From Escherichia coli (GTDB lineage: Bacteria > Pseudomonadota > Gammaproteobacteria > Enterobacterales > Enterobacteriaceae), in NCBI RefSeq assembly GCF_965641715.1, contig NZ_OZ282453.1: 64,000 nt of DNA; one strand, given 5' to 3'. Position numbers and translations under genes: made by a program. Numbering within the stretch: position 1 is the first letter of the stretch; every line of letters starts with the position of its first letter. A model generated the notes under the pieces. That model saw only the letters and a program-made list of their open reading frames with translations, did no database searches and was not told the origin of the DNA. Below are positions 10,212-45,882 of this stretch, one piece after another.

Positions 10212-10973
10212 TCACTTTTCCGATACAACACGGCGGGAAGAATCAGTAATCTGTCGAACAATATCCCGGTGCTTGTTCAGCTCCCGCAGCGCGGCGCAGA
10301 CTCGCTCCCACTTCTGAACATGATTTTTCGCCCGACGCAATTCGCGGTTTGCCATATGCAGCGATGGTAAAACCAGGTCATCCGCTCGCGTTTCAGTAAA
10401 CGATGGCAGCGACTGCACAATGTCCGCCACAGTTTCTGTTTTAATATCTTCCTGTGTTGCAGCCTCCTGTACTGGTAACGCAACACCTGCGGGCTGAGGA
10501 AAGGCCTTACCATCAGTTTCCGCTACCGATGCTGCTTTCGGCTCTGCTGGTAAATTATCGCCCGGTATGCAGTAACGAAATTTACCGCCCTGATTTACGC
10601 GAATCAGACGACCTTTGCTGATTGCCATTGCCAGCATTGAAGCCACTTTGCGTGATGCGGTACCAAACAATGTAGCCAGCTCATCAGCCGTTTGTGGTCC
10701 GCGTTGTTCAATCGTCGCGGTTAAATCGCACTCTGATATTTTCGCTACTGTTGCTGTGGTGGTTTCTTCCGGCAGTTCTGCCTGCGCTGGCTGTTCCTGC
10801 TGAACGTTGTTATCAGCCACACGCCAGGTGTACGCACTTTTATCAACAAAACCAGCCTTTTTCAGCTCCCATAGTTCGTTCAGCACTTCTTCACGACTGA
10901 TATCAAGTCGCGCAGCAAGTTCTATGGATGTGGCTTTTCCCATTGCTTTCAGTGCGTCAAAAACAGTCTCCAT
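10212..10973 (-). CDS. phage protein with N-terminal winged-helix-like domain (253 aa)
   Basis: [45 protein letters not shown]; follows replication genes. Confidence 0.55.
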
Positions 10974-10994
10974 TAAATTTTCTCCCGGTAAAAA

Positions 10995-11741
10995 TTACTT
11001 CGCAATTCCTGGCTGGACGACATTCGGACGCCAGCTCTCCCAGTTAAAATTCACCCATCGCCCGCCGTTCATGGTCATGCGATCCATAATCCGCTCGCCG
11101 AGCAATGTTTTCATGGCCTCATAGTTCAGGTTTGTCAGCATTCCCACGCTACGCATCGACGCTGTCCGTCGATCAATAATCTGGTGCAGTACCACCTGCT
11201 CGTTTTTCGTCTCGCGCTGAATGCCAATTTCATCAAGAACCAGCAGATCCACTTCGCACAGTTCCCGCAAAAATTTTTCGCCTGACTGCCCGTCGTCATA
11301 GCTGGCGTGGAGGGCACTCATAACATCAGCCACGGTAACCACAATCACTGTCTGACCGTCTTTCAGCAGGCGATTCCCGATAGCTGCTGCTAAGTGGTTC
11401 TTCCCGGTACCAGGTTTTCCGCTAAACGCGAAATTTGTGCATCCGGTAACCAGTTCGTCAGCGATAGATTTCGCCAGACTCAACGCGTATCGCTGGCCGT
11501 CGTTCTGCACCTGGTAATTCGCAAACGAGCATTTACGGTGCAACGGCTGGATGCCTGAGCGATTCAGAATTTTTTCCACCCGCAACTGGCGATTCAGGCG
11601 GTTGATCTCCTCGCTACGTTTCTGGCCTTCAGCAAGTTGCCACTCGCGCCACTCCGCTACCGTTCTGAATGGGGCAGTTACATGTGGTGGGGTCAGTCTG
11701 CGGATACGCTCCAGAACGCCTCCTGTCGCAATATTTTTCAT
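10995..11741 (-). CDS. DnaC-like replicative helicase loader (YdaV-like, AAA+)
   Basis: Walker A GKPGTGKNHLAAAIG and Walker B LLVLDEIG; 248 aa; downstream of O-like gene. Confidence 0.85.
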   Translation of the reverse strand: MKNIATGGVLERIRRLTPPHVTAPFRTVAEWREWQLAEGQKRSEEINRLNRQLRVEKILNRSGIQPLHRKCSFANYQVQNDGQRYALSLAKSIADELVTGCTNFAFSGKPGTGKNHLAAAIGNRLLKDGQTVIVVTVADVMSALHASYDDGQSGEKFLRELCEVDLLVLDEIGIQRETKNEQVVLHQIIDRRTASMRSVGMLTNLNYEAMKTLLGERIMDRMTMNGGRWVNFNWESWRPNVVQPGIAK

Positions 11742-11747
11742 GGTCTG

Positions 11748-12536
11748 TTACCCCCTGAAGCCTGGCGGGATCGCACTATCCGGTAACGAAACGGTGTTAA
11801 CCTGTCGGAGTAACGTCTCAGGTCGAACACCTTTCGGCGCGAACAAGCCCTGGTATTCATTAGCAATGCTGTGTCGAATCACCTGCTCAGGTGAAAAACC
11901 CTGCTGGCGGAATTTTTCCAGCTCTCGTATCGCCCCGTTAGCGCCCTGCTCCGTTCGAATCGGTTTTCGCAATGCCTGCCTGAACTGAACCCACTCATGC
12001 CAGAGTGTTTCCGGCAACCAGTCAGGCAGCTCGATAGCCTCCGGCTCGAATTTTTTAGACGCTCGTTTTTGGCGAAGGGGATTTAGGGGGAGATCAGTAT
12101 TTATATCTTCCTCTTCCTCTTCCTCTGGTAACGCTTTTTGATCCGTTTGTGTAACGCTGCCAGCGTTACCTTTTCGTTTCAGTTCGCGTATTTTTGTAAC
12201 TCGCTCGTTTGTAACCGCCCGTTTTTTAGAGCTTTTTCCGTTATGACGTTCAAAGTTAGGTAGAGAAAGCCCACCGTCATTTTCGACCAGCCATCCAACC
12301 TGAATTAACGCATCAGCAAAACCAGCCATAAAAGTGATGCGATCTATTGCACTTTTTGTAACGCCGCGAGCGTTACAATCTGCATTACCGTCTATCATTT
12401 GTTGATCCGCCCATGCCCAGAAGCGAATAACCTTCCCTAATGCGGCATCTGGATCAATATTCAGAATCTCAGCAAGCCTGAATATTTCCGGCTTATCCGG
12501 CGTAATAACTTCGAGCTTTATCCAGTTTGAAGCCAT
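11748..12536 (-). CDS. phage replication initiation protein (O-like / YdaU-like)
   Basis: 262 aa; acidic linker EEEEEED; position between cII-like gene and DnaC-like loader; palindromic repeats inside and upstream. Confidence 0.7.
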   Translation of the reverse strand: MASNWIKLEVITPDKPEIFRLAEILNIDPDAALGKVIRFWAWADQQMIDGNADCNARGVTKSAIDRITFMAGFADALIQVGWLVENDGGLSLPNFERHNGKSSKKRAVTNERVTKIRELKRKGNAGSVTQTDQKALPEEEEEEDINTDLPLNPLRQKRASKKFEPEAIELPDWLPETLWHEWVQFRQALRKPIRTEQGANGAIRELEKFRQQGFSPEQVIRHSIANEYQGLFAPKGVRPETLLRQVNTVSLPDSAIPPGFRG

Positions 12537-12568
12537 TTGTTTTCACCTTGTAACGCTCGCAGCGTTAC
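12151..12568. repeat. three copies of a 19-bp palindrome GTAACGC-N5-GCGTTAC (12151..12169, 12358..12376, 12550..12568) plus half-sites; candidate origin iterons/operators
   Basis: Read directly from sequence; two copies inside the O-like gene, one in its upstream intergenic region. Confidence 0.6.
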
Positions 12569-12613
12569 ATTTAACTGATACCGAACAAAACAGTCCGGCA
12601 CGATTAATTTCAA

Positions 12614-13036
12614 TCAATGCACTACAACAGAATCGCCAGGCGACCCGCCGCCGCTGAAATGTGCTTTACGGTAAACGGCCTGGACTGCATCATCATGCGC
12701 ATCAATTGCCGTACTCAACGCTTCCTGCGCCGCCAGTAATGCACGGCGTTCCAGGGTATCGAAGATGCAGAGTCGGTGACGCAGCTCGCGCGGAAGAATT
12801 GCCAGAACCGCAGGGATCAGTGTCTGAATTTTTTCCCTTTGCGCTTTCGTTTCGCCTTTCAACCAGCGGTGATAGATGTTCTGCTGATTGTTCCAGTCCT
12901 TGCCTGGTACCAGCGGCAATTCGCCGCCCCCCTGGCGCAGATATTCTTCAGTAATTGCATTAGCTACCCACGCCTGCCCTTTTTCGGCTGCCAGGGCTAA
13001 CAACACTGATTCGATGTGCTCATGCCTGATTTTCAT
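12614..13036 (-). CDS. ydaT: YdaT-like protein (CII-like domain; toxic in Rac when derepressed)
   Basis: 140 aa; position immediately downstream of cro-like gene, overlapping its 3' end, as in Rac ydaS-ydaT. Confidence 0.5.
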   Translation of the reverse strand: MKIRHEHIESVLLALAAEKGQAWVANAITEEYLRQGGGELPLVPGKDWNNQQNIYHRWLKGETKAQREKIQTLIPAVLAILPRELRHRLCIFDTLERRALLAAQEALSTAIDAHDDAVQAVYRKAHFSGGGSPGDSVVVH

Positions 13037-13295
13037 GAATCAACTCCTGTGCATTTTGTGTGTTAGCCTTGCATCCAACAGGTAAACCGTCGGTTGGGTT
13101 CGGGTAGATATCAGGCCGGAGTTCATGAGGTGTAACCTCGAAATTCGTAGCCTCTGCGATACGCAATACCTTTTCAGGGCTTAACTGACTACGTCCAGTA
13201 GCAACGAGGCTAATCATTGATTGCGAACAACCAGCCAGCGCGGCCAAACAAGACTGTCGTACACGATTTTTTTTCAAATATTCATCTAATGTCAT
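13020..13295 (-). CDS. ydaS: Cro-like HTH protein (YdaS-like)
   Basis: 91 aa from MTLDEYLKKNRVRQSCLAALAGCSQSMISL (HTH); divergent from repressor gene. Confidence 0.65.
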   Translation of the reverse strand: MTLDEYLKKNRVRQSCLAALAGCSQSMISLVATGRSQLSPEKVLRIAEATNFEVTPHELRPDIYPNPTDGLPVGCKANTQNAQELIHENQA

Positions 13296-13399
13296 AAGGG
13301 TCACCTTAGTAATGCTTACCAAAATATTAACTATATTAATTTAAATGATCAACACCTATATCAGTTTGAGATTATGAGCTGTATTCATAAGATGGTGAT
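13296..13399. promoter_or_regulatory. divergent promoter/operator region between cro-like and repressor genes
   Basis: AT-rich 104-bp intergenic region between divergently transcribed HTH genes; no operator sequence confirmed. Confidence 0.4.
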
Positions 13400-13864
13400 A
13401 TGAGAAGAAAACGCGAAGAAATCGCATCGCCGGAAGCTACGCAACGTCTGCGCGCAATCTGGGATGCAAAAAAGAGAGAGCTCAAACTGACTCAGGAGCT
13501 TGCTGCCGAGCTAATGGGTTTTGAGGCGCAATCTGCGGTTAGCCATTATCTCAACGGAAAGGCTCCACTTAATACTGATGCGGCATTAAAATTCGCTGTA
13601 TTACTAAGAGTTAAGCCTGAAGAGTTGAGGCCTGATTTAGCTGATCTGATGAATTACGTCCGTTCCTCAGGAACTTATGACGAAAGTTTCGAAGGCGAAG
13701 GTTGGCGGATGGTTAACAAGCAACAGGCTGATTTACTGGACCTTTTTGATATCCTTCCCGAATCAGAAAAAGCAAAACTAATCGAAAGGCTTAAAGGCCA
13801 GAATGAACTCTACAAAGAAGCGTTTGAAAATATGCTGGCAGCTCAAAAACGCATGAAGAAATAG
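13400..13864 (+). CDS. prophage repressor, DicA/RacR-like XRE-family HTH
   Basis: 154 aa; N-terminal HTH; C-terminus LDLFDILPESEKAKLIERLK resembles DicA C-terminal region. Confidence 0.7.
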   Translation: MRRKREEIASPEATQRLRAIWDAKKRELKLTQELAAELMGFEAQSAVSHYLNGKAPLNTDAALKFAVLLRVKPEELRPDLADLMNYVRSSGTYDESFEGEGWRMVNKQQADLLDLFDILPESEKAKLIERLKGQNELYKEAFENMLAAQKRMKK

Positions 13865-13883
13865 CTCCCACCACCTCGTAACT

Positions 13884-13910
13884 AAACCGCCATTTTTGGC
13901 GGTTTTTTTG
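13884..13910 (+). terminator. intrinsic terminator after repressor gene
   Basis: AAACCGCC-ATTTT-GGCGG followed by TTTTTTT. Confidence 0.6.
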
Positions 13911-14128
13911 TCCCCTCCGCCCGTCCCCGCCTTACTTTTTATCAAAAAAACACTAAAAATTTCATTAGGATAGTACATTTTTATCAACAAAATGCATATT
14001 TGTGTTGATCATTAATATGAACATAACTAATATTATTACAGAAGCAGCACGGCGCTGTAGGTTTTAGTTCCGCCACCCGGCGTTAAAGGGAGAGATAAAA
14101 TGGTGCTTACGAAGTAGTTCAGTATTTG

Positions 14129-14233
14129 ATGGATTGTTGCGGTATCACTTACAGCCAAGCTGTACAGGCTTTACGCTGCAACGACTGGGATCTCTGGCAG
14201 GCAGAAGCCGCTATACGCAGCAACAAGATGTGA
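14129..14233 (+). CDS. small ORF (34 aa), possibly ydaG-like
   Basis: Manual translation MDCCGITYSQAVQALRCNDWDLWQAEAAIRSNKM; start uncertain. Confidence 0.25.
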   Translation: MDCCGITYSQAVQALRCNDWDLWQAEAAIRSNKM

Positions 14234-14243
14234 TATTCGAAAA

Positions 14244-14399
14244 ATGCAAAAAATCGACCTCGGCAACAACGAATCTCTGGTATGTGGCGTGTTTCCCAAT
14301 CAGGACGGCACATTCACAGCCATGACGTATACCAAAAGCAAAACGTTTAAAACCGAAGCTGGCGCACGTCGCTGGTTGGCAATACATTCAGGTGAATAA
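14244..14399 (+). CDS. small protein (51 aa), YdaF-like
   Basis: Manual translation MQKIDLGNNESLVCGVFPNQDGTFTAMTYTKSKTFKTEAGARRWLAIHSGE; similar in size and position to Rac ydaF. Confidence 0.4.
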   Translation: MQKIDLGNNESLVCGVFPNQDGTFTAMTYTKSKTFKTEAGARRWLAIHSGE

Positions 14400-14400
14400 A

Positions 14401-14763
14401 ATGAACGAAACAGAATTAAAACACGTTATCGCTCTGCTTCTGGAGGATGCAAAGCGCCTCCAGCAGCTGGCCCCAAATGCAGGCACTGAAGAGCGAATTA
14501 TTATGGCTAATAAAAGTCTACATTCTGCATATGATACAAATACAAAGCAAACAGATAAAAATATTATTGTTTATGGGCACAGCGTTAACAGAGAATTTGC
14601 TTACTTTGTTCTGGAAAAATATCAACCTACATTTTGCCGGATAATAGAAGAACTAACATTAAAAGGCAAAGATAAAGAGTTTATTGAAAATGCTGTGGCA
14701 ACGGCAAGCGCAGCAGCCGTTGCCAGTATCAAATCAATGATTGCTCTAGCGATTAACCAATAA
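14401..14763 (+). CDS. hypothetical soluble protein (120 aa), immunity-region moron
   Basis: AT-rich ORF downstream of repressor on the same strand, the position occupied by rex/sieB-type accessory genes in lambda. Confidence 0.5.
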   Translation: MNETELKHVIALLLEDAKRLQQLAPNAGTEERIIMANKSLHSAYDTNTKQTDKNIIVYGHSVNREFAYFVLEKYQPTFCRIIEELTLKGKDKEFIENAVATASAAAVASIKSMIALAINQ

Positions 14764-14920
14764 ACCCAGGGGGGATATCACGCTGAGGTGGGTTAAGAAG
14801 CTCGGTAAACACCGCTCTCAGGCGTTGAACTTCTGAAATAAAATCGGCTTCACTGCAATCCCAGCCTTTGGGGTGCTTAAGTCGCAAATATTCAAAAACT
14901 AACGAATCAATTTCATTCAT
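14753..14920 (-). CDS. small ORF (55 aa) ending in IPPGFIG, same C-terminal motif as the O-like replication protein
   Basis: Start MNEIDSLV with GGAGA RBS; convergent with the 120-aa gene; C-terminus ELLNPPQRDIPPGFIG versus O-like ...DSAIPPGFRG. Confidence 0.3.
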   Translation of the reverse strand: MNEIDSLVFEYLRLKHPKGWDCSEADFISEVQRLRAVFTELLNPPQRDIPPGFIG

Positions 14921-15338
14921 ATTGGATAGCACAATTATTCTCCTTACTAGTTGTGTGAGAACTCCAGTATACCACCGAGCCTGAAGTGGTAAAAAGACAG
15001 GCGCACAACACGAAGGCGCATTTCCGGTATCCATAAAGAGTCGGTCTTGTCTGTTAAATTTAAATGGTGGGAGTGCGCCTCCGGTTGTAAATAACAACAC
15101 TGCTGTGTGTAGTCTTGGCGGCATCAGTTTTTTCTTGAAGTTCGGCTGATGTCCGCCCTTTTTAAAGTGAATTTTGGGATGTGGTGAATGCGGCTAAGCG
15201 CACGTGGCACAGTTAAAAGTCATGTTAGTCCTTATTGGTTTGTGTGGGAAAACCGACAGTAATTGTTAACTGGTTGCAGTCACCTGGAGGCACCAGGCAC
15301 CGCATCCACAAATTTCATTTGTAAAAATGGAGATAATT

Positions 15339-15560
15339 ATGATTGCACATCACTTCGGAACTGATGAAATACCACGTCAGTGTGTGACTCCTGGCGATTA
15401 TGTTCTTCATGAAGGCCGAACATATATTGCATCGGCAAACAATATTAAAAAGCGAAAACTTTATATTCGTAATCTGACCACAAAAACATGCATTACTGAC
15501 TGCATGATTAAAGTCTTCCTCGGTCGTGATGGTTTACCCGTAAAGGCGGAGTCATGGTGA
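15339..15560 (+). CDS. kilR: KilR-like cell-division inhibitor
   Basis: 73 aa [32 protein letters not shown]...; position upstream of ydaE/racC-like genes as in Rac. Confidence 0.6.
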
Positions 15561-15728
15561 TGACTAAGAAAATAAAATGTGCTTACCACCTTTGCAATAA
15601 AGAAATTGAAGAAAGCAAAAGTATTAAAAGACCACTTCATTTCATGCGTGGAGTTATCCCAACGACGGAAATGAAAAAATATTGTAGTAAAAGTTGTGCC
15701 GAAAAAGACCAGATGGCATACGAACTTT
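15561..15728 (+). CDS. ydaE: YdaE-like small Cys-rich protein (55 aa)
   Basis: Manual translation [56 protein letters not shown]; four Cys. Confidence 0.5.
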
Positions 15729-15803
15729 AATTAACTGACTATTCGAAACTGAATTTATGCCAGAAATGGCAGGGATTCACTCAACCGTAAAAAGGAAACA
15801 GCA

Positions 15804-16100
15804 ATGAACATTATTGAATGTGAAATTGAACTTGATGTCATTAACGATTCTCTCGCCGAATTTAAATGCGGGAATACATTACATGGTTTTATTCAGATTT
15901 CCCTGGAAGAAAAAGTTACGGTGATTATTGATGGCGGTTACGTTCTGGGAACATTTGATTGTTATGTATGTGCCGTTAAAGAAGTCGCATTACTCGCAGC
16001 TCGTATTGAAGAGGCCGACAAGAAATACGGTATCAGTTATCAACGACTGAAAGAACTCTCTTATATCGCATCATCAGTGCGTTTCTTTTATGCAATCTGA
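15804..16100 (+). CDS. racC: RacC-like protein (98 aa)
   Basis: Size and position immediately upstream of the recE-like gene. Confidence 0.45.
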   Translation: MNIIECEIELDVINDSLAEFKCGNTLHGFIQISLEEKVTVIIDGGYVLGTFDCYVCAVKEVALLAARIEEADKKYGISYQRLKELSYIASSVRFFYAI

Positions 16101-16123
16101 ATCTGCGTTGGGGTTAAAAAACA

Positions 16124-18109
16124 ATGAGCACAAAACCACTCTTCCTGTTACGGAAAGCGAAAAAATTATCCGGTGAACCTGACGTCGTCCTGTGGGCAAG
16201 CGACGATCTTGAATCGACCTGTGCCACTCTGGATTACCTGATCGTTAAGTCAGGTAAAAAACTGAGCAACTATTTTAAAGCTGTTGCTACTAATTTTCCT
16301 GTCGTTAACGACCTGCCCCCAGAAGGGGAGATCGATTTTACGTGGTGTGAACGCTATCAACTCGGCAAGGACTCAGTCACTTGGAAACTAAAACCGGGTG
16401 CAGCACCAGACAACGCTCACTATCAAGGCAATACCAACGTCAACGGCGAAGACATGACTGAGATTGAGGAGAATATGTTACTGCCGGTATCAGGTCAGAT
16501 TCTGCCTGTTCGATGGCTGGCACAGCATGGCAGCGAAAAACCGATCACACACGTTTCGCGGAGCGAACTGCGCGCATTACATAACGCACAGGATGAAAAA
16601 CTTCCCGCCGTTACCGCGCTGGCTATCTCAAATAAAGCAGCACAACTCGAACCGCTGGAAATTCGCGAGCTCCACAAACTGGTTCGTGACACTGACAAAG
16701 TTTTCCCTAATCCTAGTAATTCAGACCTGGGACTGATGACTGCTTTTTTCGAAGCATACCTGGGCGCTGACTACACCGATCGCGGTCTGCTTACAAAAGA
16801 GTGGATGAAGGGGAATCGTGTTTCACGCATCACCCGCACGGCTTCCGGTGCTAATGCTGGCGGCGGGAACCTCACCGATCGCGGCGAAGGTTTCGTCCAC
16901 GATCTGACGTCACTGGCGCGCGACGTAGCCACTGGCGTACTGGCCCGTTCAATGGATCTGGACATCTATAACCTTCATCCGGCACACGCTAAACGCATTG
17001 AGGAAATTATCGCTGAAAATAAACCGCCCTTTTCTGTTTTCCGCGACAAATTCATCACCATGCCTGGCGGGCTGGATTATTCCCGTGCCATCGTGGTTGC
17101 GTCCGTGAAAGAAGCACCAATTGGGATCGATGTCATCCCCGCGCAAGTCACTGAATATCTGAACAAAGTACTGACTGAAACCGATCATGCCAACCCTGAT
17201 CCGGAAATCGTGGATATTGCCTGCGGTCGCTCCTCTGCCCCGATGCTGCAGCGTGTAACAGAAGAAGAAAAACAGGATGATGAAGAAAAACCGCAACCAT
17301 CTTGCGCAATGGCAGATGAACAGGCAATGGCTGAAACAGTGGAACCGGATGCAACTGAACATCATCAGGACACGCAGCCGCTGGATGCTCAGTCACAGGT
17401 AAATGCTGTTGATGCGAAATATCAGAAACTGCGGACAGAACTCCATGAAGCCCGGAAAAACATTCCGTCCAAAAATCCTGTCGATGCAGACAAATTACTG
17501 GCTGCCTCTCGCGGAGAATTTGTTGAAGGGATTAGCGACCCGAATGATCCGAAATGGGTTAAGGGGATCCAGACCCACGATTCTGTGTACCAGAATCAAC
17601 CAGAAACGGAACAGAACGACCGAAAATCGGAACAGAACAGCCCAAATACGCAACAAAACGAGCCAGAAACGAAACAGCCTGAGCCAGTAGTGCAACAACT
17701 GGAAACGGAGAAAGTTTGCACCGCCTGCGGTCAGGCTGGCGGCGGCAACTGTCCTGACTGCGGCGCGGTGATGGGCGACGCAACGTATCAGAAAACCTTT
17801 AATGAAGAAAATCAGAATGAATATCAGGAAAAAGGTCTGGAGGAAATGGAAGGTGCTGAACATCCGCACAAGGAGAACGCTGGCAGCGTTCCGCATCGCG
17901 ATTGCAGTGATGAAACTGGCGAAGCAGCAGCTTCATCATTAGAAAAACTCGACTGGAAAAGACAAGTGGTGATTGCAGCGGTTTACGGTTTATGTGCGAA
18001 TCCTGCGGGTATAGCCTCAGCGCCATTAATTCCGGGTATTGCAATGATGATTGCAAACAAACTTGAAAATTTTGGGGTGACGGATGATGAGTACATGCCC
18101 AATTTTTGA
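16124..18109 (+). CDS. RecE N-terminal-domain homologue lacking the C-terminal exonuclease domain (661 aa), with low-complexity linker and Cys4 motif
   Basis: First approx 540 aa align with the RecE N-terminal region as I recall it ([14 protein letters not shown]...[30 protein letters not shown]...); C-terminus diverges into [16 protein letters not shown] plus a hydrophobic tail. Confidence 0.75.
17570..17700 (+). repeat. imperfect tandem repeats (GAAACGGAACAGAAC-like units) encoding a Q/E/N/P-rich linker inside the recE-like gene
   Basis: Read directly: ...accagaaacggaacagaacgaccgaaaatcggaacagaacagcccaaatacgcaacaaaacgagccagaaacgaaacagcc... Confidence 0.6.
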
Positions 18110-18383
18110 TCGCATTGAAGAGCAGGCATGGTCACGCCACTACCAGCAAATCGTTCGCGAAGAAAAAGAAACGGCGCTGGCGGACGACCTGGAAAAAGGT
18201 CTGCCCCAGCACCTGTTTGAATCGCTCTGCATCGACCATTTGCAACGCCACGGTGCCAGCAAACAGGCAATCAGTCGCGCATTTGATGACGATGTTGAAT
18301 TTCAGGAACGCGTGGGGGAGCACATCCGGTACATGGTTGAAACCATTGCTCGTCACCAGGTTGATATTGATTCAGAGGTATAA
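18084..18383 (+). CDS. gam: lambda Gam-like RecBCD inhibitor
   Basis: 99 aa; ...[83 protein letters not shown] matches lambda Gam. Confidence 0.85.
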
Positions 18384-18388
18384 AACGA

Positions 18389-19174
18389 ATGAGTACAGCA
18401 CTTGCAACACTGGCCGGGAAGCTGGCTGAACGCGTCGGCATGGATTCTGTCGACCCGCAGGAACTGATCGCCACTCTTCGCCAGACGGCATTTAAAGGTA
18501 ATGCCAGCGATGCGCAATTCATCGCGCTGCTGATCGTCGCCAACCAGTACGGACTTAATCCGTGGACGAAAGAGATTTACGCCTTCCCTGATAAGCAGAA
18601 CGGCATTGTTCCGGTGGTGGGCGTTGATGGCTGGTCCCGCATCATAAATGAAAACCAGCAGTTTGATGGCATGGACTTTGAGCAGGACAATGAATCATGT
18701 ACATGCCGGATTTACCGCAAGGACCGTAATCATCCGATCTGCGTTACCGAGTGGATGGATGAGTGCCGTCGCGAACCATTCAAAACCCGAGAAGGCAAAG
18801 AAATCATCGGACCGTGGCAGTCGCATCCCAAACGGATGTTACGGCATAAAGCCATGATTCAGTGTGCCCGTCTGGCCTTCGGATTTGCTGGTATCTATGA
18901 CAAGGATGAAGCCGAGCGCATTGTCGAAAATACCGCATGCACTGCAGAACATCAGCCGGAACGCGACATCACTCCGGTTAACGATGAAACCATGCAGGAG
19001 ATTAACACTCTGCTGATTGCCCTGGATAAAACATGGGATGACGACTTATTGCCGCTCTGTTCCCAGATATTTCGCCGCGACATTCGTGCATTGTCAGAAC
19101 TGAAACAGGCCGAAGCAGTGAAAGCTCTTGGATTCCTGAAACAGAAAGCCGCAGAGCAGAAGGTGGCAATATGA
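18389..19174 (+). CDS. bet: lambda Bet-like single-strand annealing protein (Red beta)
   Basis: 261 aa [27 protein letters not shown]... matches lambda Bet in length and sequence. Confidence 0.9.
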
Positions 19175-19851
19175 CACCGGACATTATCCTGCAGCGTACC
19201 GGGATCGACGTGAGAGCTATCGTGCAGGGGGATGATGCGTGGCACAAATTACGGCTCGGCGTCATCACAGCTTCAGAAGTTCACAACGTGATAGCAAAAC
19301 CCCGCTCCGGAAAGAAATGGCCTGACATGAAAATGTCCTACTTCCACACCCTGCTTGCCGAGGTTTGCACCGGTGTGGCTCCGGAAATTAATGCTAAGGC
19401 GCTGGCCTGGGGAAAACAGTACGAGAACGACGCCAGAACCCTGTTTGAATTCACTTCCGGCGTGAATGTTACTGAATCCCCGATCATCTATCGCGACGAA
19501 AGTATGCGCACCGCCTGCTCTCCCGATGGTTTATGCAGTGACGGCAACGGCCTTGAGCTGAAATGCCCGTTTACCTCCCGGGATTTCATGAAGTTCCGGC
19601 TCGGTGGTTTCGAGGCCATAAAATCGGCTTACATGGCCCAGGTGCAGTACAGCATGTGGGTGACGCGAAAAGATGCCTGGTACTTTTCCAACTATGACCC
19701 GCGTATGAAGCGTGAAGGCCTGCACTATGTCGTGGTTGAGCGGGATGAAAAGTACATGGCGAGTTTTGACGAGATGGTGCCGGAGTTCATCGAAAAAATG
19801 GACGAGGCACTGGCTGAAATTGGTTTTGTATTTGGGGAGCAATGGAAATGA
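19171..19851 (+). CDS. exo: lambda exonuclease (Red alpha)
   Basis: 226 aa [65 protein letters not shown]... nearly identical to lambda Exo as recalled. Confidence 0.9.
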
Positions 19852-20259: not shown

Positions 20260-20358
20260 ATTGCATTGTATTCAAATTAAAACTTCATAGCTGATTATTA
20301 ATAATCAACATCGGGCGTCAATTTCAGTCTAACATTGGCGCCTGCCAGAGGTGATGCG

Positions 20359-20575: not shown

Positions 20576-21811
20576 ATGTCTAAATTACCAACAGGTGTCG
20601 AGATTAGAGGTAGATACATTCGCATCTGGTTCATGTTTCGAGGAAAACGATGTCGGGAAACATTAAAAGGCTGGGAGATTACAAACAGTAATATTAAAAA
20701 GGCCGGAAATTTAAGAGCGCTGATAGTTCATGAAATAAACTCCGGTGAATTTGAGTATTTAAGACGTTTTCCCCAGTCCAGCACTGGGGCAAAAATGGTG
20801 ACAACGAGAGTCATAAAAACGTTCGGGGAGCTTTGTGATATCTGGACAAAAATTAAAGAGACAGAGTTAACAACAAACACAATGAAGAAAACGAAATCAC
20901 AATTAAAAACACTCAGAATAATAATTTGTGAAAGTACCCCGATATCACATATTCGTTATAGCGATATCTTAAACTACCGGAATGAACTGCTGCATGGAGA
21001 AACGCTTTACCTGGATAATCCAAGATCCAACAAAAAAGGAAGAACCGTGCGCACAGTTGATAACTATATCGCCCTGCTCTGTTCGCTGTTACGTTTTGCG
21101 TATCAGTCGGGATTTATATCAACCAAACCATTTGAAGGAGTAAAAAAATTACAGCGAAACAGAATAAAGCCTGATCCGTTATCTAAAACAGAATTCAATG
21201 CATTAATGGAAAGTGAAAAAGGACAGAGCCAAAACTTGTGGAAATTTGCCGTTTACTCAGGACTTCGTCACGGGGAACTGGCAGCTCTGGCGTGGGAGGA
21301 TGTGGATCTCGAAAAGGGAATAGTGAATGTCAGAAGAAACCTGACGATACTTGATATGTTCGGTCCCCCAAAAACAAATGCCGGGATCCGGACAGTAACA
21401 CTACTGCAGCCTGCTCTTGAAGCACTGAAGGAGCAATACAAACTGACCGGACATCATCGCAAAAGCGAAATCACCTTTTATCATAGGGAGTACGGCAGAA
21501 CCGAAAAGCAAAAACTGCATTTTGTTTTCATGCCCAGGATGTGTAACGGAAAACAGAAACCTTATTACTCGGTAAGCAGTTTGGGGGCAAGGTGGAATGC
21601 AACAGTAAAACGTGCTGGTATTCGCCGCCGTAATCCGTACCATACGCGGCATACTTTTGCCTGCTGGCTGTTGACGGCAGGAGCGAACCCGGCATTTATA
21701 GCCAGCCAGATGGGGCATGAAACTGCGCAGATGGTGTATGAAATTTACGGTATGTGGATTGATGACATGAACGACGAACAGGTAGCCATGTTGAATGCGC
21801 GGTTATCGTAG
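20576..21811 (+). CDS. intR: tyrosine integrase (IntR-like)
   Basis: 411 aa; C-terminal catalytic region with HTRHTFACWLLTAGANPAFIASQMGHE; adjacent to ttcA start. Confidence 0.9.
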   Translation: MSKLPTGVEIRGRYIRIWFMFRGKRCRETLKGWEITNSNIKKAGNLRALIVHEINSGEFEYLRRFPQSSTGAKMVTTRVIKTFGELCDIWTKIKETELTTNTMKKTKSQLKTLRIIICESTPISHIRYSDILNYRNELLHGETLYLDNPRSNKKGRTVRTVDNYIALLCSLLRFAYQSGFISTKPFEGVKKLQRNRIKPDPLSKTEFNALMESEKGQSQNLWKFAVYSGLRHGELAALAWEDVDLEKGIVNVRRNLTILDMFGPPKTNAGIRTVTLLQPALEALKEQYKLTGHHRKSEITFYHREYGRTEKQKLHFVFMPRMCNGKQKPYYSVSSLGARWNATVKRAGIRRRNPYHTRHTFACWLLTAGANPAFIASQMGHETAQMVYEIYGMWIDDMNDEQVAMLNARLS

Positions 21812-21862: not shown

Positions 21863-22798
21863 ATGCAAGAAAATCAAAAGAATACGAAGAAAGAACAATA
21901 CAATCTGAACAAATTACAAAAACGCCTGCGTCGTAACGTGGGCGAAGCCATTGCTGACTTCAATATGATTGAAGAAGGCGATCGCATCATGGTTTGCCTC
22001 TCCGGGGGTAAAGACAGCTATACCATGCTGGAGATTCTGCGCAATTTGCAGCAAAGCGCGCCAATCAATTTTTCGCTGGTGGCTGTTAACCTCGATCAAA
22101 AGCAACCGGGCTTCCCGGAACACGTTCTGCCCGAGTATCTTGAAAAGCTGGGCGTTGAGTACAAGATTGTTGAAGAGAACACTTACGGTATCGTGAAAGA
22201 GAAGATTCCAGAGGGCAAAACCACTTGCTCACTGTGTTCTCGCCTTCGTCGCGGTATTCTTTATCGTACCGCAACGGAACTGGGGGCGACGAAGATCGCG
22301 CTGGGTCACCATCGTGACGATATCCTGCAGACGCTGTTCTTAAATATGTTCTACGGCGGCAAGATGAAAGGTATGCCTCCGAAACTGATGAGCGATGATG
22401 GCAAACATATCGTTATTCGTCCGCTGGCCTACTGCCGCGAGAAAGATATTCAGCGATTTGCCGATGCAAAAGCGTTCCCGATTATTCCGTGCAACCTGTG
22501 CGGTTCACAGCCTAACCTGCAACGTCAGGTGATTGCTGACATGTTGCGTGACTGGGATAAACGTTATCCAGGGCGTATCGAGACGATGTTCAGCGCGATG
22601 CAGAATGTGGTGCCGTCGCATCTGTGCGATACCAACCTGTTCGATTTCAAAGGCATCACCCACGGTTCTGAAGTGGTTAACGGGGGTGATCTGGCGTTTG
22701 ATCGCGAAGAGATCCCACTACAACCGGCGGGCTGGCAGCCAGAAGAAGATGAAAATCAGTTGGATGAGTTACGGCTGAATGTGGTTGAAGTGAAATAA
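21863..22798 (+). CDS. ttcA: tRNA 2-thiocytidine(32) synthetase TtcA
   Basis: 311 aa with PP-loop SGGKDS and CxxC motifs; matches TtcA. Confidence 0.9.
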
Positions 22799-44340: not shown

Positions 44341-45882
44341 TTACTCTTCGTTCTTCTTCTGACTCAGACCATATTCCCGCAACTTATTGGCAATCGCGGT
44401 ATGTGAAACGCCGAGACGTTTTGCCAGTTTGCGCGTGCTGGGATAATTGCGATAAAGCTGGGTTAATACCGAGCGTTCAAAACGGCTGGTGATTTCATCC
44501 AGCGAACCTTCCATCGCATCTTCGCCCACGGCTACCGTTGCGGCGTCATAATCCGGCAACAAAATATCCTGTGGACGCAGTTCATAACCGTCCAGTTGTG
44601 TCAGTGCGCGATAGATAGCGTTCTTTAACTGCCGCACATTTCCCGGCCACGCATAACGCGTAAGTACAGTATTCAGGTCAGCGGCCAGTTTCGGACGCGG
44701 CACGCCCTGCTCGTCGGCAAAGCGGGCGACGAACAGCTCAGTTAACGGCATGATGTCCTGCGGACAGTCACGTAGCGGCGGCAGATTGAGCGTCAACACG
44801 TTCAGACGATAATAGAGATCTTCACGGAACATGCCTTTTTGCACCAGTTCGACCAGATTCTTCTGCGTAGCGCAAATCACCCGCACATCGACATGCACCT
44901 CATGGTCTTCGCCAACCCGACGGAAAGTGCCATCATTAAGGAAACGCAGTAATTTCGCCTGCATCCGTGGTGACATCTCACCTATTTCATCCAACAGCAC
45001 CGAACCACCGTTCGCCTGCTCAAAGAATCCTTTCTTCCCTTCCGGAGCATGACCAAACAGCTCACTCTCGACCGCATCTTCCGGTATAGACGCACAGTTC
45101 AGCGCCAGGTAAGGTTTGCTCGCTCTTGGGCTTGCCTGATGGCAGGCGTAGGCAAAAAGATCTTTACCTGTACCTGTGTCACCCGTAATCAGCAGCGGCG
45201 CGCTTAGCATCGCCAGTTTCTGCGCCTGTTCGACAACATGCTTCATTTTCGGGCTGACAGCGACAATTTGACTGAAGGCGCTGACGTCCTGGGCGGCGAC
45301 ATTTTGCAACTGACGGCCCATACGAATCGTTGATCGCAACATCACCACCGCACCTGTCAGGACGTGTTGATCATTTTCATCCTGAAGATAAACAGGCGTA
45401 ATCTCCATCAGGAAGTTCTGTCCATTAATAACAACATGCTCGTTATGGGAATCTTGCGGTTCGCTTTCCAGCCAACGTAAAAAATTAAAGCCGTTAATCA
45501 ATTGTGCGGCGGTATGGTTGCGCAGGCGATCCAATTTTTGCCCAAAAAGCTGACAGCTCGCCGGGTTCGCCATATCCACTTTGCTTTTCATATCGACAGA
45601 GAGCACAGGTTCAGGCAACGCCTCCAGTAACGCGCTCAACGCCAGATGCTCACGTTCGGAAGGCATCCACGGGACAGTACGCACATCGGTAACACCTGCA
45701 ATACGGCGTATTTCGGCCATCAGACTGCTGAAACTCTCAAACTCCAGTTCAGCAAAATTGAGGTAGATTCGCCCAATGGGATCAATCTCAATACCGCGTA
45801 AATCAATGCCTCTTAGCACGAGTAGATCGAGTAATTCGCGGGTCAGACCGAGTCGGTCTTCACAAAAGACTTCCAGACGCAT
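44341..45882 (-). CDS. tyrR: transcriptional regulator TyrR (sigma-54-interaction-type AAA+ domain, HTH)
   Basis: 513 aa from MRLEVFCEDRLGLTRELLDLL. Confidence 0.9.
   Translation of the reverse strand: MRLEVFCEDRLGLTRELLDLLVLRGIDLRGIEIDPIGRIYLNFAELEFESFSSLMAEIRRIAGVTDVRTVPWMPSEREHLALSALLEALPEPVLSVDMKSKVDMANPASCQLFGQKLDRLRNHTAAQLINGFNFLRWLESEPQDSHNEHVVINGQNFLMEITPVYLQDENDQHVLTGAVVMLRSTIRMGRQLQNVAAQDVSAFSQIVAVSPKMKHVVEQAQKLAMLSAPLLITGDTGTGKDLFAYACHQASPRASKPYLALNCASIPEDAVESELFGHAPEGKKGFFEQANGGSVLLDEIGEMSPRMQAKLLRFLNDGTFRRVGEDHEVHVDVRVICATQKNLVELVQKGMFREDLYYRLNVLTLNLPPLRDCPQDIMPLTELFVARFADEQGVPRPKLAADLNTVLTRYAWPGNVRQLKNAIYRALTQLDGYELRPQDILLPDYDAATVAVGEDAMEGSLDEITSRFERSVLTQLYRNYPSTRKLAKRLGVSHTAIANKLREYGLSQKKNEE

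What the first reader, a model, noticed from the sequence alone, without database searches (positions are those of the whole stretch)
12614..13864. RacR-YdaS-YdaT-type immunity module
A DicA/RacR-like repressor is divergent from a YdaS-like HTH gene that overlaps a YdaT-like gene by 17 nt. In K-12 Rac, loss of RacR is lethal through ydaS/ydaT expression, so this module probably behaves as a toxin-antitoxin-like addiction switch here too. The repressor C-terminus resembles DicA.
Basis: partly seen in the sequence, partly recalled or inferred. Interest (0 to 1): 0.35.

Follow-up and report, generated by a model that had tools for sequence, protein, structure and literature searches.

The report
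Rac-type prophage lysis–lysogeny switch
This is the ordinary on/off control region of a Rac-family virus resting in the E. coli chromosome (a repressor facing a Cro-like and a CII-like regulator), with a swapped-in repressor type, and not a toxin–antitoxin system.

Summary
They are ydaT-like 12614-13036(-), a YdaS-family Cro-like gene 13020-13295(-) and a divergent repressor 13400-13864(+). The 17-nt overlap is real.

YdaT is 94% identical to K-12 YdaT. The Cro-like protein is only a distant YdaS relative. The repressor shows no detectable similarity to RacR. It has a lambda-CI-type N-terminal DNA-binding domain joined to a DicA-like C-terminal helical tail, and it lacks a LexA-type self-cleavage domain.

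Window 13043-14063 has no DNA homology to K-12 Rac. It looks like an exchanged immunity cassette in a Rac-family prophage integrated at ttcA. A significant 39-nt inverted repeat flanks the repressor gene and carries two outward promoter-like sites, resembling lambda PR and PL. The published YdaT box sits on the ydaT start codon.

Surrounding genes (replication, kilR, recombination, xis-int, lysis) and published work on Rac and CP-933P fit a CI/Cro/CII-type lysogeny switch. Losing the repressor would probably harm the cell, but through prophage derepression, not through a dedicated addiction module.

This is a new member of a known kind and of low interest. Two further exact YdaT-box cores, one upstream of xis-int and one inside the ydaW-like gene, are a small untested lead.

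The parts
12614..13036 (-). ydaT-like gene (140 aa), a CII-analogue transcription factor
   Evidence: 94% identical to K-12 YdaT. PF06254. PHROG 163 'CII-like transcriptional activator', E 3e-36. Matches PDB 8bt1 and 3c4r. H56, R57, L107 and A110 are conserved.
13026..13043 (-). YdaT box TTGATT-CATGAA-AATCAG spanning the ydaT start codon
   Evidence: Read from the sequence. One mismatch to the CP-933P consensus TTGATT-N6-AATCAA. Occupies the same position as the footprinted K-12 box ATGATTCATGAAAATCAA (PMC11879457). Conserved in relatives L004, L009 and L010.
13020..13295 (-). Cro-like gene of the YdaS family (91 aa), overlapping ydaT by 17 nt
   Evidence: PF15943, 40.4 bits. PHROG 35. PDB 'Cro' 8c7k/8co2, E 4e-7. 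42% identity over 50 aa to K-12 YdaS. 66% identical to the Rac-SA53 'dicC' product.
13324..13352 (-). PR-like promoter: -35 TTGATC (13352-13347), 17-nt spacer, -10 TAATAT (13329-13324)
   Evidence: Relaxed hexamer scan, 8/12. Both hexamers are invariant across six related loci. Activity not measured.
13323..13361 (.). Left arm of the 39-nt inverted repeat (OR-like region)
   Evidence: 31/39 complementary to 13996-14034. 0 of 300 Markov simulations reached 31; mean 23.0, maximum 27.
13366..13393 (+). PRM-like promoter TTGAGA-16-TAAGAT. It would start transcription at or near the repressor ATG (leaderless)
   Evidence: Promoter scan, 9/12. The -10 region and its 6-nt distance to the ATG are conserved in relatives. 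Leaderless translation was shown for paaR2 and cI (PMC8630535). Inferred here.
13400..13864 (+). Prophage repressor (154 aa): lambda-CI-type N-terminal domain, linker, DicA-like C-terminal helical hairpin; no peptidase S24 domain
   Evidence: PDB lambda CI N-terminal domain, E 6e-8. Foldseek to 1lmb/3kz3, TM-score (target-normalised) 0.74-0.82. DicA C-terminus. AlphaFold model, pLDDT 80.7. No match to RacR.
13884..13905 (+). Intrinsic terminator after the repressor gene, making it a monocistronic unit
   Evidence: Terminator scan: 9-bp stem plus T-run. The stem is kept through changes on both sides in relatives.
13996..14034 (+). Right arm of the inverted repeat, carrying the PL-like promoter: -35 TTGATC 14005-14010, -10 TAATAT 14028-14033
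   Evidence: The -10 hexamer is invariant and the -35 is conserved in relatives.
13043..14063 (.). Immunity cassette with no DNA homology to K-12 Rac, bounded by Rac-homologous DNA
   Evidence: blastn against K-12 Rac: homology at 12616-13042 (92.7%) and 14064-14379 (91.8%), nothing between. 74% identical to Rac-SA53 across the cassette.
14041..14097 (+). Conserved leader element just downstream of the PL-like promoter (two predicted hairpins); function unknown
   Evidence: Identical to Rac-SA53 except one position, and almost unchanged in Salmonella relatives, while the flanks diverge. Fold prediction. No Rfam family.
11748..12536 (-). Replication initiation (O-like) gene downstream of ydaT
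   Evidence: PHROG 2509, E 4e-88.
10995..11741 (-). DnaC-like helicase loader (ydaV-like)
   Evidence: NF009043, 505.8 bits; IstB/DnaC families.
20291..20308 (.). Second exact YdaT-box core (TGATT-N6-AATCA), 51 nt upstream of the xis ATG (20359)
   Evidence: Also present in K-12 Rac and Rac-SA53. Binding not tested.
10590..10607 (.). Third exact YdaT-box core, inside the DUF1627 (ydaW-like) gene
   Evidence: Also present in K-12 Rac and in the near-identical PEC41 prophage (L001) but not in Rac-SA53. Binding not tested.

Best explanation
This is the lysis-lysogeny (immunity) switch of a Rac-family lambdoid prophage integrated at ttcA. It has the same architecture as lambda cI/cro/cII.

Proposed mechanism, with each step marked as shown or inferred:
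1. The 154-aa repressor is made from a PRM-like promoter, probably on a leaderless mRNA (inferred). It ends at its own terminator.
2. It binds through a lambda-CI-type N-terminal domain and oligomerises through a DicA-like C-terminal helical hairpin (inferred from sequence and model).
3. It occupies related operator regions on both sides of its gene, the two arms of the 39-nt inverted repeat (inferred). This shuts off a PR-like promoter and a PL-like promoter.
4. The PR-like promoter would drive the Cro-like gene, ydaT, the O-like and DnaC-like replication genes, the Q-like gene and lysis genes. The PL-like promoter would drive ydaF, kilR, the recombination genes and xis-int (gene order shown; transcription units inferred).
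5. The Cro-like YdaS-family protein counteracts the repressor (inferred from homologues).
6. YdaT is a tetrameric CII analogue. It binds the box on its own start codon and boosts repressor synthesis from a reverse promoter (shown for K-12 Rac and CP-933P; inferred here).
7. The repressor has no S24 self-cleavage domain, so induction is probably not by direct RecA-stimulated cleavage (inferred).

The cassette 13043-14063 gives this prophage an immunity specificity different from K-12 Rac.
For: - Gene identities.
- Mosaic boundaries against K-12 Rac.
- Lambdoid context on both sides. Left: O-like, DnaC-like, DUF1133/Q-like, holin, GH108 endolysin. Right: YdaF, kilR, Exonuc_VIII, RecT, YqaJ, Lar, xis, int, then ttcA.
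- Inverted repeat flanking the repressor: 31/39 matches, 0 of 300 simulations as good. Each arm carries TTGATC-17-TAATAT pointing outward. The hexamers are conserved in Salmonella, Hafnia, metagenomic and Rac-SA53 relatives.
- The predicted PR and PRM starts lie about 83 bp apart. From memory, the lambda value is about 82 bp.
- The YdaT box sits on the ydaT ATG, as in K-12 (PMC11879457).
- The repressor / YdaS-family / YdaT trio recurs in Hafnia and metagenomic relatives of this repressor. Rac-SA53 has the same layout, and its Cro-like protein is also a YdaS-family member.
- More distant relatives carry the same N-terminal domain fused to Peptidase_S24.
- Experimental work on homologues: PMC8630535, PMC9986795, PMC11014345, PMC11879457, and the argument in PMC5917428.
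Against: - Nothing here was measured. Promoters are weak-to-moderate consensus matches (8-9 of 12).
- Individual operator sites could not be resolved.
- No consensus-like reverse (PRE-type) promoter was found inside the Cro-like gene.
- The prophage runs off the left edge of the window, so it cannot be said whether it is complete and inducible.
- The repressor's DNA specificity and oligomeric state are inferred from homology and a model with a low-confidence linker.
Confidence: 0.85

Rival explanations
1. Toxin-antitoxin-like addiction module. The repressor exists mainly to hold down toxic YdaS/YdaT, so cells that lose it die, which stabilises the locus.
For: - In K-12, racR is essential because it represses ydaS/ydaT (PMC5700373, PMC5700377).
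- YdaT overexpression causes filamentation and death through rcsA (PMC11014345, PMC11879457).
- The window's YdaT is 94% identical with H56/R57 intact.
- Pfam still names the families 'toxin'.
Against: - Both supposed toxins are HTH DNA-binding regulators with Cro and CII homologues of solved structure.
- The repressor is transcribed divergently on its own and ends at its own terminator. No toxin gene is co-transcribed with it, unlike paaR2-paaA2-parE2.
- The layout and neighbours are those of a lambdoid switch.
- CP-933P YdaT is not toxic, and YdaS/YdaT were shown not to be a toxin-antitoxin pair (PMC8630535).
- In K-12, YdaS is not toxic when retested, and repressor shortage also causes prophage excision, which relieves the toxicity (PMC11014345).
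Confidence: 0.1
2. Decayed regulatory remnant. The genes are fossils of a dead prophage and no longer regulate anything.
For: K-12 Rac is defective. The window does not show the structural half of this prophage. The ydaG-equivalent reading frame appears disrupted.
Against: - All three ORFs are intact and full length relative to homologues.
- Promoter hexamers, the terminator and the YdaT box are conserved across genera.
- Even K-12 Rac's switch is functional (PMC5917428, PMC11014345).
- The 99.6%-identical locus in strain PEC41 lies in a prophage with terminase, portal and lysis genes.
Confidence: 0.05

Closest known systems
K-12 Rac immunity region (racR / ydaS-ydaT)
   Same: Same prophage family and attachment site (ttcA). 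YdaT is 94% identical, and the YdaT box sits on the ydaT start codon. The downstream replication genes (ydaU C-terminal part, ydaV, ydaW) and upstream ydaF/kilR are 92-95% identical in DNA.
   Different: The repressor is unrelated in sequence and HTH family. The Cro-like protein is only 42% identical over 50 aa. The 1,021-bp cassette 13043-14063 has no DNA homology. cro and ydaT overlap by 17 nt here, whereas a 22-nt gap separates them in K-12.
Immunity region of Escherichia phage Rac-SA53 (KU052037; genes annotated dicA, dicC, ydaT)
   Same: Closest annotated relative. The repressor is 69.5% identical over its full length and the Cro-like protein 66%. It has the same layout, the same PL leader block and the same YdaT box.
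   Different: The recognition-helix regions differ in both the repressor (AQSAVSHYLN here, SQGTVSQYLN there) and the Cro-like protein. The operator regions diverge. The two are therefore probably heteroimmune. There is no cro/ydaT overlap in Rac-SA53.
Lambda cI / cro / cII switch
   Same: - The repressor N-terminal domain is homologous to that of lambda CI (38-42% identity).
- Divergent back-to-back promoters, with related control regions on both sides of the repressor gene.
- A CII-type activator lies between cro and the replication genes.
   Different: - A 50-aa helical tail replaces the lambda CI C-terminal oligomerisation/self-cleavage domain.
- YdaS and YdaT are not sequence homologues of lambda Cro and CII (PMC9986795).
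- No rex-like genes follow the repressor.
Qin prophage dicA / dicC-ydfX
   Same: The C-terminal 50 residues of the repressor resemble DicA. dicC and ydfX also overlap by 17 nt. ydfX has a weak YdaT-like segment.
   Different: DicA's N-terminal domain is P22 C2-like, not lambda-CI-like. DicC is a P22_Cro family protein with no similarity to the window's Cro-like protein. The full-length DicA model is not matched: 35.6 bits against a cutoff of 101.
CP-933P paaR2 / ydaS-ydaT immunity region (E. coli O157:H7)
   Same: An experimentally dissected CI/Cro/CII-analogue switch with a YdaS-family Cro, a tetrameric YdaT, the TTGATT-N6-AATCAA box, a leaderless repressor mRNA and a PL-type second operator region (PMC8630535, PMC9986795). 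The window's Cro-like protein and YdaT match PDB entries 8c7k/8co2 and 8bt1, which by their names probably come from that work.
   Different: In CP-933P the repressor is co-transcribed with a genuine toxin-antitoxin pair (paaA2-parE2). Here the repressor gene stands alone before a terminator. YdaT there is only about 30% identical to Rac YdaT and is not toxic (PMC11879457, PMC8630535).

Membership tests
Lambdoid prophage immunity region (CI/Cro/CII-type switch) | Repressor gene divergent from a cro-like gene across a short control region with back-to-back promoters | tested here: met
   104-nt intergenic region 13296-13399. It holds a PR-like promoter (minus strand) and a PRM-like promoter (plus strand), conserved in relatives.
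Lambdoid prophage immunity region (CI/Cro/CII-type switch) | Related operator/promoter regions on both sides of the repressor gene (OR and OL) | tested here: met
   39-nt inverted repeat 13323-13361 / 13996-14034, 31/39 matches, 0 of 300 simulations as good. Individual operator sites were not resolved.
Lambdoid prophage immunity region (CI/Cro/CII-type switch) | CII-type activator and replication genes downstream of cro; kil, recombination and xis-int genes on the other arm | tested here: met
   annotation of the 99.6%-identical locus.
Lambdoid prophage immunity region (CI/Cro/CII-type switch) | Repressor binds the operators and silences the lytic promoters | not testable with these tools
   Needs EMSA or footprinting and reporter fusions.
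RacR (K-12 Rac repressor) family | Sequence homology to RacR | tested here: not met
   BLASTP finds only a 7-residue chance match, E 4.5. RacR has only a weak HTH_17 hit, whereas the window's repressor is HTH_3 / lambda-CI type.
DicA family (NCBIfam NF007257) | Full-length match above the curated cutoff | tested here: not met
   35.6 bits against a cutoff of 101. Only profile positions 85-134 match. DicA's N-terminal domain is P22-C2-like, whereas this one is lambda-CI-like.
YdaS family (Pfam PF15943, Cro-like HTH) | Score above the Pfam gathering threshold | tested here: met
   40.4 bits against 30. It is not a close orthologue of K-12 YdaS: 42% identity over 50 aa.
YdaT family (Pfam PF06254; CII functional analogue) | Family match, the DNA-contact residues H56/R57, and a cognate inverted-repeat box at the ydaS/ydaT junction | tested here: met
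   42.5 bits against 21. 94% identical to K-12 YdaT. H56, R57, L107 and A110 present. Box at 13026-13043.
Type II toxin-antitoxin system | Toxin and antitoxin co-transcribed in one operon that the antitoxin or the complex autoregulates | tested here: not met
   The supposed antidote (the repressor) is transcribed divergently on its own and ends at its own terminator. YdaS and YdaT are both HTH regulators.
Type II toxin-antitoxin system | Toxin neutralised by direct binding of a labile antitoxin protein | not testable with these tools
Homologues were shown not to form a toxin-antitoxin pair (PMC8630535).

The most novel reading that the evidence does not exclude
In Rac-family prophages YdaT may be a full CII analogue with three targets, not one. 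The exact box core TGATT-N6-AATCA occurs three times in the window, all inside the prophage part: on the ydaT start (the known PRE-type site), 51 nt upstream of xis-int (a PI-type site) and inside the ydaW-like gene (a PaQ-type antisense site, or a partner for DNA looping by the YdaT tetramer). The two extra sites are also present in K-12 Rac. The YdaT papers read here do not mention them.
Probability: 0.3. Interest if true: 0.4.

Novelty: new member of a known kind. Interest (0 to 1): 0.2.

Why it matters
Mostly this corrects a label. Pfam's 'toxin YdaS/YdaT' names, and the PGAP 'toxin YdaT family protein' name for ydaT, invite a toxin-antitoxin reading. The evidence here and in the recent literature points to an ordinary lambdoid lysogeny switch.

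The locus is a clear example of immunity-cassette exchange within one prophage family. The exchanged segment is 1,021 bp, and one of its junctions falls on the YdaT box.

It also shows repressor domain shuffling: a lambda-CI-type DNA-binding domain on a DicA-type tail. That predicts a switch not induced by direct RecA-stimulated repressor cleavage.

The full module is present in 74 of 5,426 complete E. coli genomes, while ydaT-homologous DNA is present in 1,875. The extra YdaT boxes give a cheap, testable hypothesis about how Rac-type phages couple the lysogeny decision to integration.

Tried and rejected
1. Resolving individual operator sites. Repeat searches and a pseudo-palindrome scan of the OR and OL regions gave only weak, AT-rich candidates. 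An ATCAA(C/T)A half-site is suggested by a perfect 18-bp palindrome, ATCAATATTAATATTGAT, at the PL -35 of relative L009. The window's own sites are too asymmetric to call.
2. Locating a PRE-type reverse promoter inside the Cro-like gene. No plus-strand match of 8/12 or better lies between 13044 and 13295. Either it depends on an activator and is poor, or it is absent.
3. TTG 13322 as the Cro-like start. Rejected because it lies upstream of the predicted PR transcription start and lacks a Shine-Dalgarno sequence. ATG 13295 has one and matches PGAP.
4. RacR homology. Rejected.
5. DicC homology of the Cro-like protein. Rejected.
6. Rfam search of 12000-16200 for the conserved PL leader. No family matched; the only notable hit was a sub-threshold DicF match elsewhere.
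7. PADLOC on nearby orphan ORFs. No hits.
8. The 11-mer ATGATCAACAC at 45364 and 56096. Both copies lie inside host coding regions with unrelated flanks. Treated as probable chance, although two extra exact copies are unexpected.
9. Conservation of the xis-upstream box as independent evidence. The whole region is about 99% identical across roughly 1,800 genomes, so its conservation says nothing on its own.
Full report
**Observation.** The ORF list and sequence show three genes at the coordinates given.
- A 140-aa gene at 12614-13036 on the minus strand.
- A gene ending at 13020 on the minus strand.
- A divergent 154-aa gene at 13400-13864 on the plus strand.

The stop codon of the middle gene is 13022-13020 and the ATG of the 140-aa gene is 13036-13034, so the overlap is 17 nt. 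The middle gene most likely starts at ATG 13295 (91 aa). That start has an AAGGTGA ribosome-binding site and matches the PGAP call in the 99.6%-identical locus of E. coli PEC41. The TTG at 13322 lies upstream of the predicted transcription start.

**What the three proteins are.**
- *The 140-aa protein is a YdaT orthologue.* It is 94% identical to K-12 YdaT and matches Pfam PF06254. It also matches PHROG 163, 'CII-like transcriptional activator', and the solved YdaT structures 8bt1 and 3c4r. The DNA-contact residues H56/R57 and the helix residues L107/A110 studied in PMC11879457 are present.
- *The 91-aa protein is a Cro-like YdaS-family member.* It passes the PF15943 threshold and matches solved 'Cro' proteins 8c7k/8co2. 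It is only 42% identical to K-12 YdaS over 50 residues and unrelated to DicC.
- *The 154-aa repressor has no similarity to K-12 RacR*, which is not even an HTH_3 protein. Residues 12-82 match the lambda CI N-terminal domain by sequence (E 6e-8). An AlphaFold model (pLDDT 80.7) matches it by fold: TM-score to 1lmb/3kz3 of 0.74-0.82 at 38-42% identity. The same region is 53% identical to CI of Stx2 phages.
- *The repressor's C-terminus is DicA-like.* Residues 105-154 resemble the last 50 residues of DicA (30% identity, E 9e-7; NF007257 positions 85-134 only). They are predicted to form a helix-turn-long-helix hairpin.
- *The repressor has no Peptidase_S24 domain.* More distant relatives carry the same N-terminal domain fused to S24 (P0034, P0035). 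The protein therefore looks like a domain-shuffled CI.

**Context.** In the best-matching genome the module lies in a prophage inserted at ttcA, the Rac attachment site. In the window, int is at 20576-21811 and an ORF at 21863-22798 sits where ttcA lies in the PEC41 locus.
- Downstream of ydaT come an O-like initiator, a DnaC-like loader and DUF1627 (ydaW-like). Further on are DUF977, Ead/Ea22, DUF1367, a DUF1133/Q-like protein, an AraC-family gene, a holin and a GH108 endolysin.
- On the other side of the repressor come YdaF (DUF1391), kilR, ydaE, an Exonuc_VIII N-terminal protein, RecT and a YqaJ nuclease. Lar, DUF1187, xis and int follow.
- This is a complete lambdoid early-region layout. 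The prophage runs off the left edge of the window.

**Mosaic structure.** blastn against K-12 Rac gives 92-95% identity for 10524-12109, 12616-13042, 14064-14379 and 14971-15790. Nothing matches between 13043 and 14063.
- This 1,021-bp segment holds the Cro-like gene, the control region, the repressor, its terminator and the second control region. It is an exchanged immunity cassette.
- Its left junction falls on the YdaT box.
- The same segment is 74% identical to phage Rac-SA53, whose repressor (annotated dicA) is 69.5% identical. The recognition helices of both the repressor and the Cro-like protein differ from those of Rac-SA53.
- The full module occurs in 74 of 5,426 complete E. coli genomes, whereas the ydaT part occurs in 1,875.

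**Control elements.**
- *Inverted repeat.* A 39-nt inverted repeat flanks the repressor gene (13323-13361 and 13996-14034), with 31 of 39 positions complementary. In 300 first-order Markov simulations of the region the best value averaged 23.0, peaked at 27, and never reached 31.
- *Outward promoters.* Each arm contains TTGATC-17-TAATAT pointing away from the repressor. The arms share a 12-nt identical core, GTGTTGATCATT, over the -35 hexamer. This matches the lambda arrangement of PR and PL around cI.
- *Repressor promoter.* A plus-strand TTGAGA-16-TAAGAT promoter-like site ends 6 nt before the repressor ATG. It would give a leaderless mRNA, as shown for cI and paaR2 (PMC8630535).
- *Conservation.* The PR and PL hexamers, the PRM -10 and its distance to the ATG are conserved in related loci from Salmonella, Hafnia, a metagenome and Rac-SA53, while surrounding bases vary.
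- *Terminator.* A terminator at 13884-13905 follows the repressor. Its stem is kept through changes on both sides in relatives. The repressor is therefore monocistronic, with no toxin-antitoxin pair attached as in CP-933P.
- *YdaT box.* TTGATTCATGAAAATCAG (13043 to 13026, minus strand) spans the ydaT ATG. It sits in the same place as the footprinted K-12 box ATGATTCATGAAAATCAA (PMC11879457) and has one mismatch to the CP-933P consensus (PMC9986795).
- *Unresolved.* I could not resolve individual operator sites. I found no consensus-like reverse promoter in the Cro-like gene.

**Mechanism.** The best-supported reading is a CI/Cro/CII-type bistable switch.
- The repressor silences the PR-like and PL-like promoters and probably regulates its own promoter.
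- The Cro-like protein opposes it.
- YdaT, made from the PR transcript, binds its box and stimulates repressor synthesis. This was shown for K-12 Rac (29-fold activation of the reverse promoter, PMC11879457) and for CP-933P (PMC8630535).
- All steps are inferred here from homology, layout and conservation; none was measured.
- Because the repressor lacks a self-cleavage domain, direct RecA-mediated induction is unlikely (inference).

**The addiction interpretation.** K-12 racR is essential because it represses ydaS/ydaT (PMC5700373, PMC5700377). YdaT is toxic through rcsA activation (PMC11014345, PMC11879457). With a 94%-identical YdaT and an intact kilR, loss of the repressor would probably be harmful here too. 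Several lines of evidence nevertheless favour a phage switch whose derepression happens to be harmful.
- The case from genetic context (PMC5917428).
- The demonstration that YdaS/YdaT are not a toxin-antitoxin pair (PMC8630535).
- The finding that YdaS is not toxic, and that repressor shortage also triggers Rac excision, which relieves the toxicity (PMC11014345).
- The structural identification of YdaT as a DNA-binding tetramer (PMC9986795).

The gene organisation here fails the operon criterion for type II toxin-antitoxin systems.

**Side lead.** The box core TGATT-N6-AATCA occurs exactly three times in the 64-kb window, against 0.10 expected; 0 of 100 shuffles reached three. All three copies are in the prophage part.
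- One lies on the ydaT start.
- One lies 51 nt upstream of the xis ATG, at 20292-20307.
- One lies inside the ydaW-like gene, at 10591-10606.

The last two are also in K-12 Rac, and the xis one is in Rac-SA53. That region is about 99% conserved in all Rac carriers, so conservation adds nothing. Lambda CII activates PRE, PI and PaQ (as summarised in PMC9986795). The YdaT tetramer can hold two operators, yet CP-933P has only one strong site (PMC9986795). 'xisR' and 'ydaW' do not occur in the text of PMC11879457, and 'integrase' does not occur in PMC9986795. This is a hypothesis, not a finding.

**Verdict.** This is a new member, with a different immunity type, of a well-known kind of system. Interest is low.

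Noticed in passing
window 20291-20308 and 10590-10607: Two further exact copies of the YdaT-box core TGATT-N6-AATCA. One lies 51 nt upstream of xis-int, the other inside the DUF1627 (ydaW-like) gene. There are three exact copies in the window against 0.10 expected, all in the prophage. Both extra copies are also in K-12 Rac. They may be PI-type and PaQ-type targets or looping partners for the YdaT tetramer.
   Followed up: partly
window 14041-14097 (+): A block of about 57 nt just after the PL-like promoter differs at only one position from Rac-SA53 and is nearly unchanged in Salmonella relatives, although the flanks diverge. It is predicted to form two small hairpins (GCAGC/GCUGU, and a second stem in CGCC-ACCC-GGCG). 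It may be a nut-like or other leader RNA element. It has no Rfam match.
   Followed up: partly
window 15104-15158 (+): DicF-like small RNA match (RF00039, 41.1 bits, E 1e-6, below the gathering score of 48) upstream of kilR, in the PL operon.
   Followed up: no
window 16124-19851 (+): The recombination module differs from K-12 Rac. A 661-aa protein carries only the Exonuc_VIII N-terminal domain and is followed by RecT (18389-19174) and a separate YqaJ-type exonuclease (19171-19851), instead of one long RecE.
   Followed up: no
window 6755-8238 (+): Two overlapping ORFs (310 and 184 aa) are oriented against the surrounding PR operon. They match only PHROGs of unknown function (15676, 15250), with no Pfam or PADLOC hit. 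They may be an independently transcribed accessory ('moron') cassette.
   Followed up: partly
window 45364-45374 and 56096-56106 (-): The 11-mer ATGATCAACAC, the shared core over the PR and PL -35 hexamers, also occurs exactly twice inside host coding regions. About 0.03 copies would be expected for a random 11-mer. The flanks are unrelated, so this is probably chance, but it is unexplained.
   Followed up: partly
window 14098-14234 (+): The position homologous to K-12 ydaG has no intact equivalent reading frame. An ATG at 14098 stops after five codons, and PGAP annotates no gene there in the near-identical PEC41 locus.
   Followed up: no
window 12110-12615 (-): The N-terminal half of the O-like replication initiator (11748-12536) and the ydaT-O intergenic region have no DNA homology to K-12 ydaU, while the C-terminal half does. 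This suggests a second mosaic exchange, probably changing origin specificity.
   Followed up: no
L003 4621-4637 (K-12 Qin): dicC and ydfX in Qin overlap by 17 nt, the same length as the cro-like/ydaT overlap in the window. ydfX has a weak YdaT-like segment.
   Followed up: no
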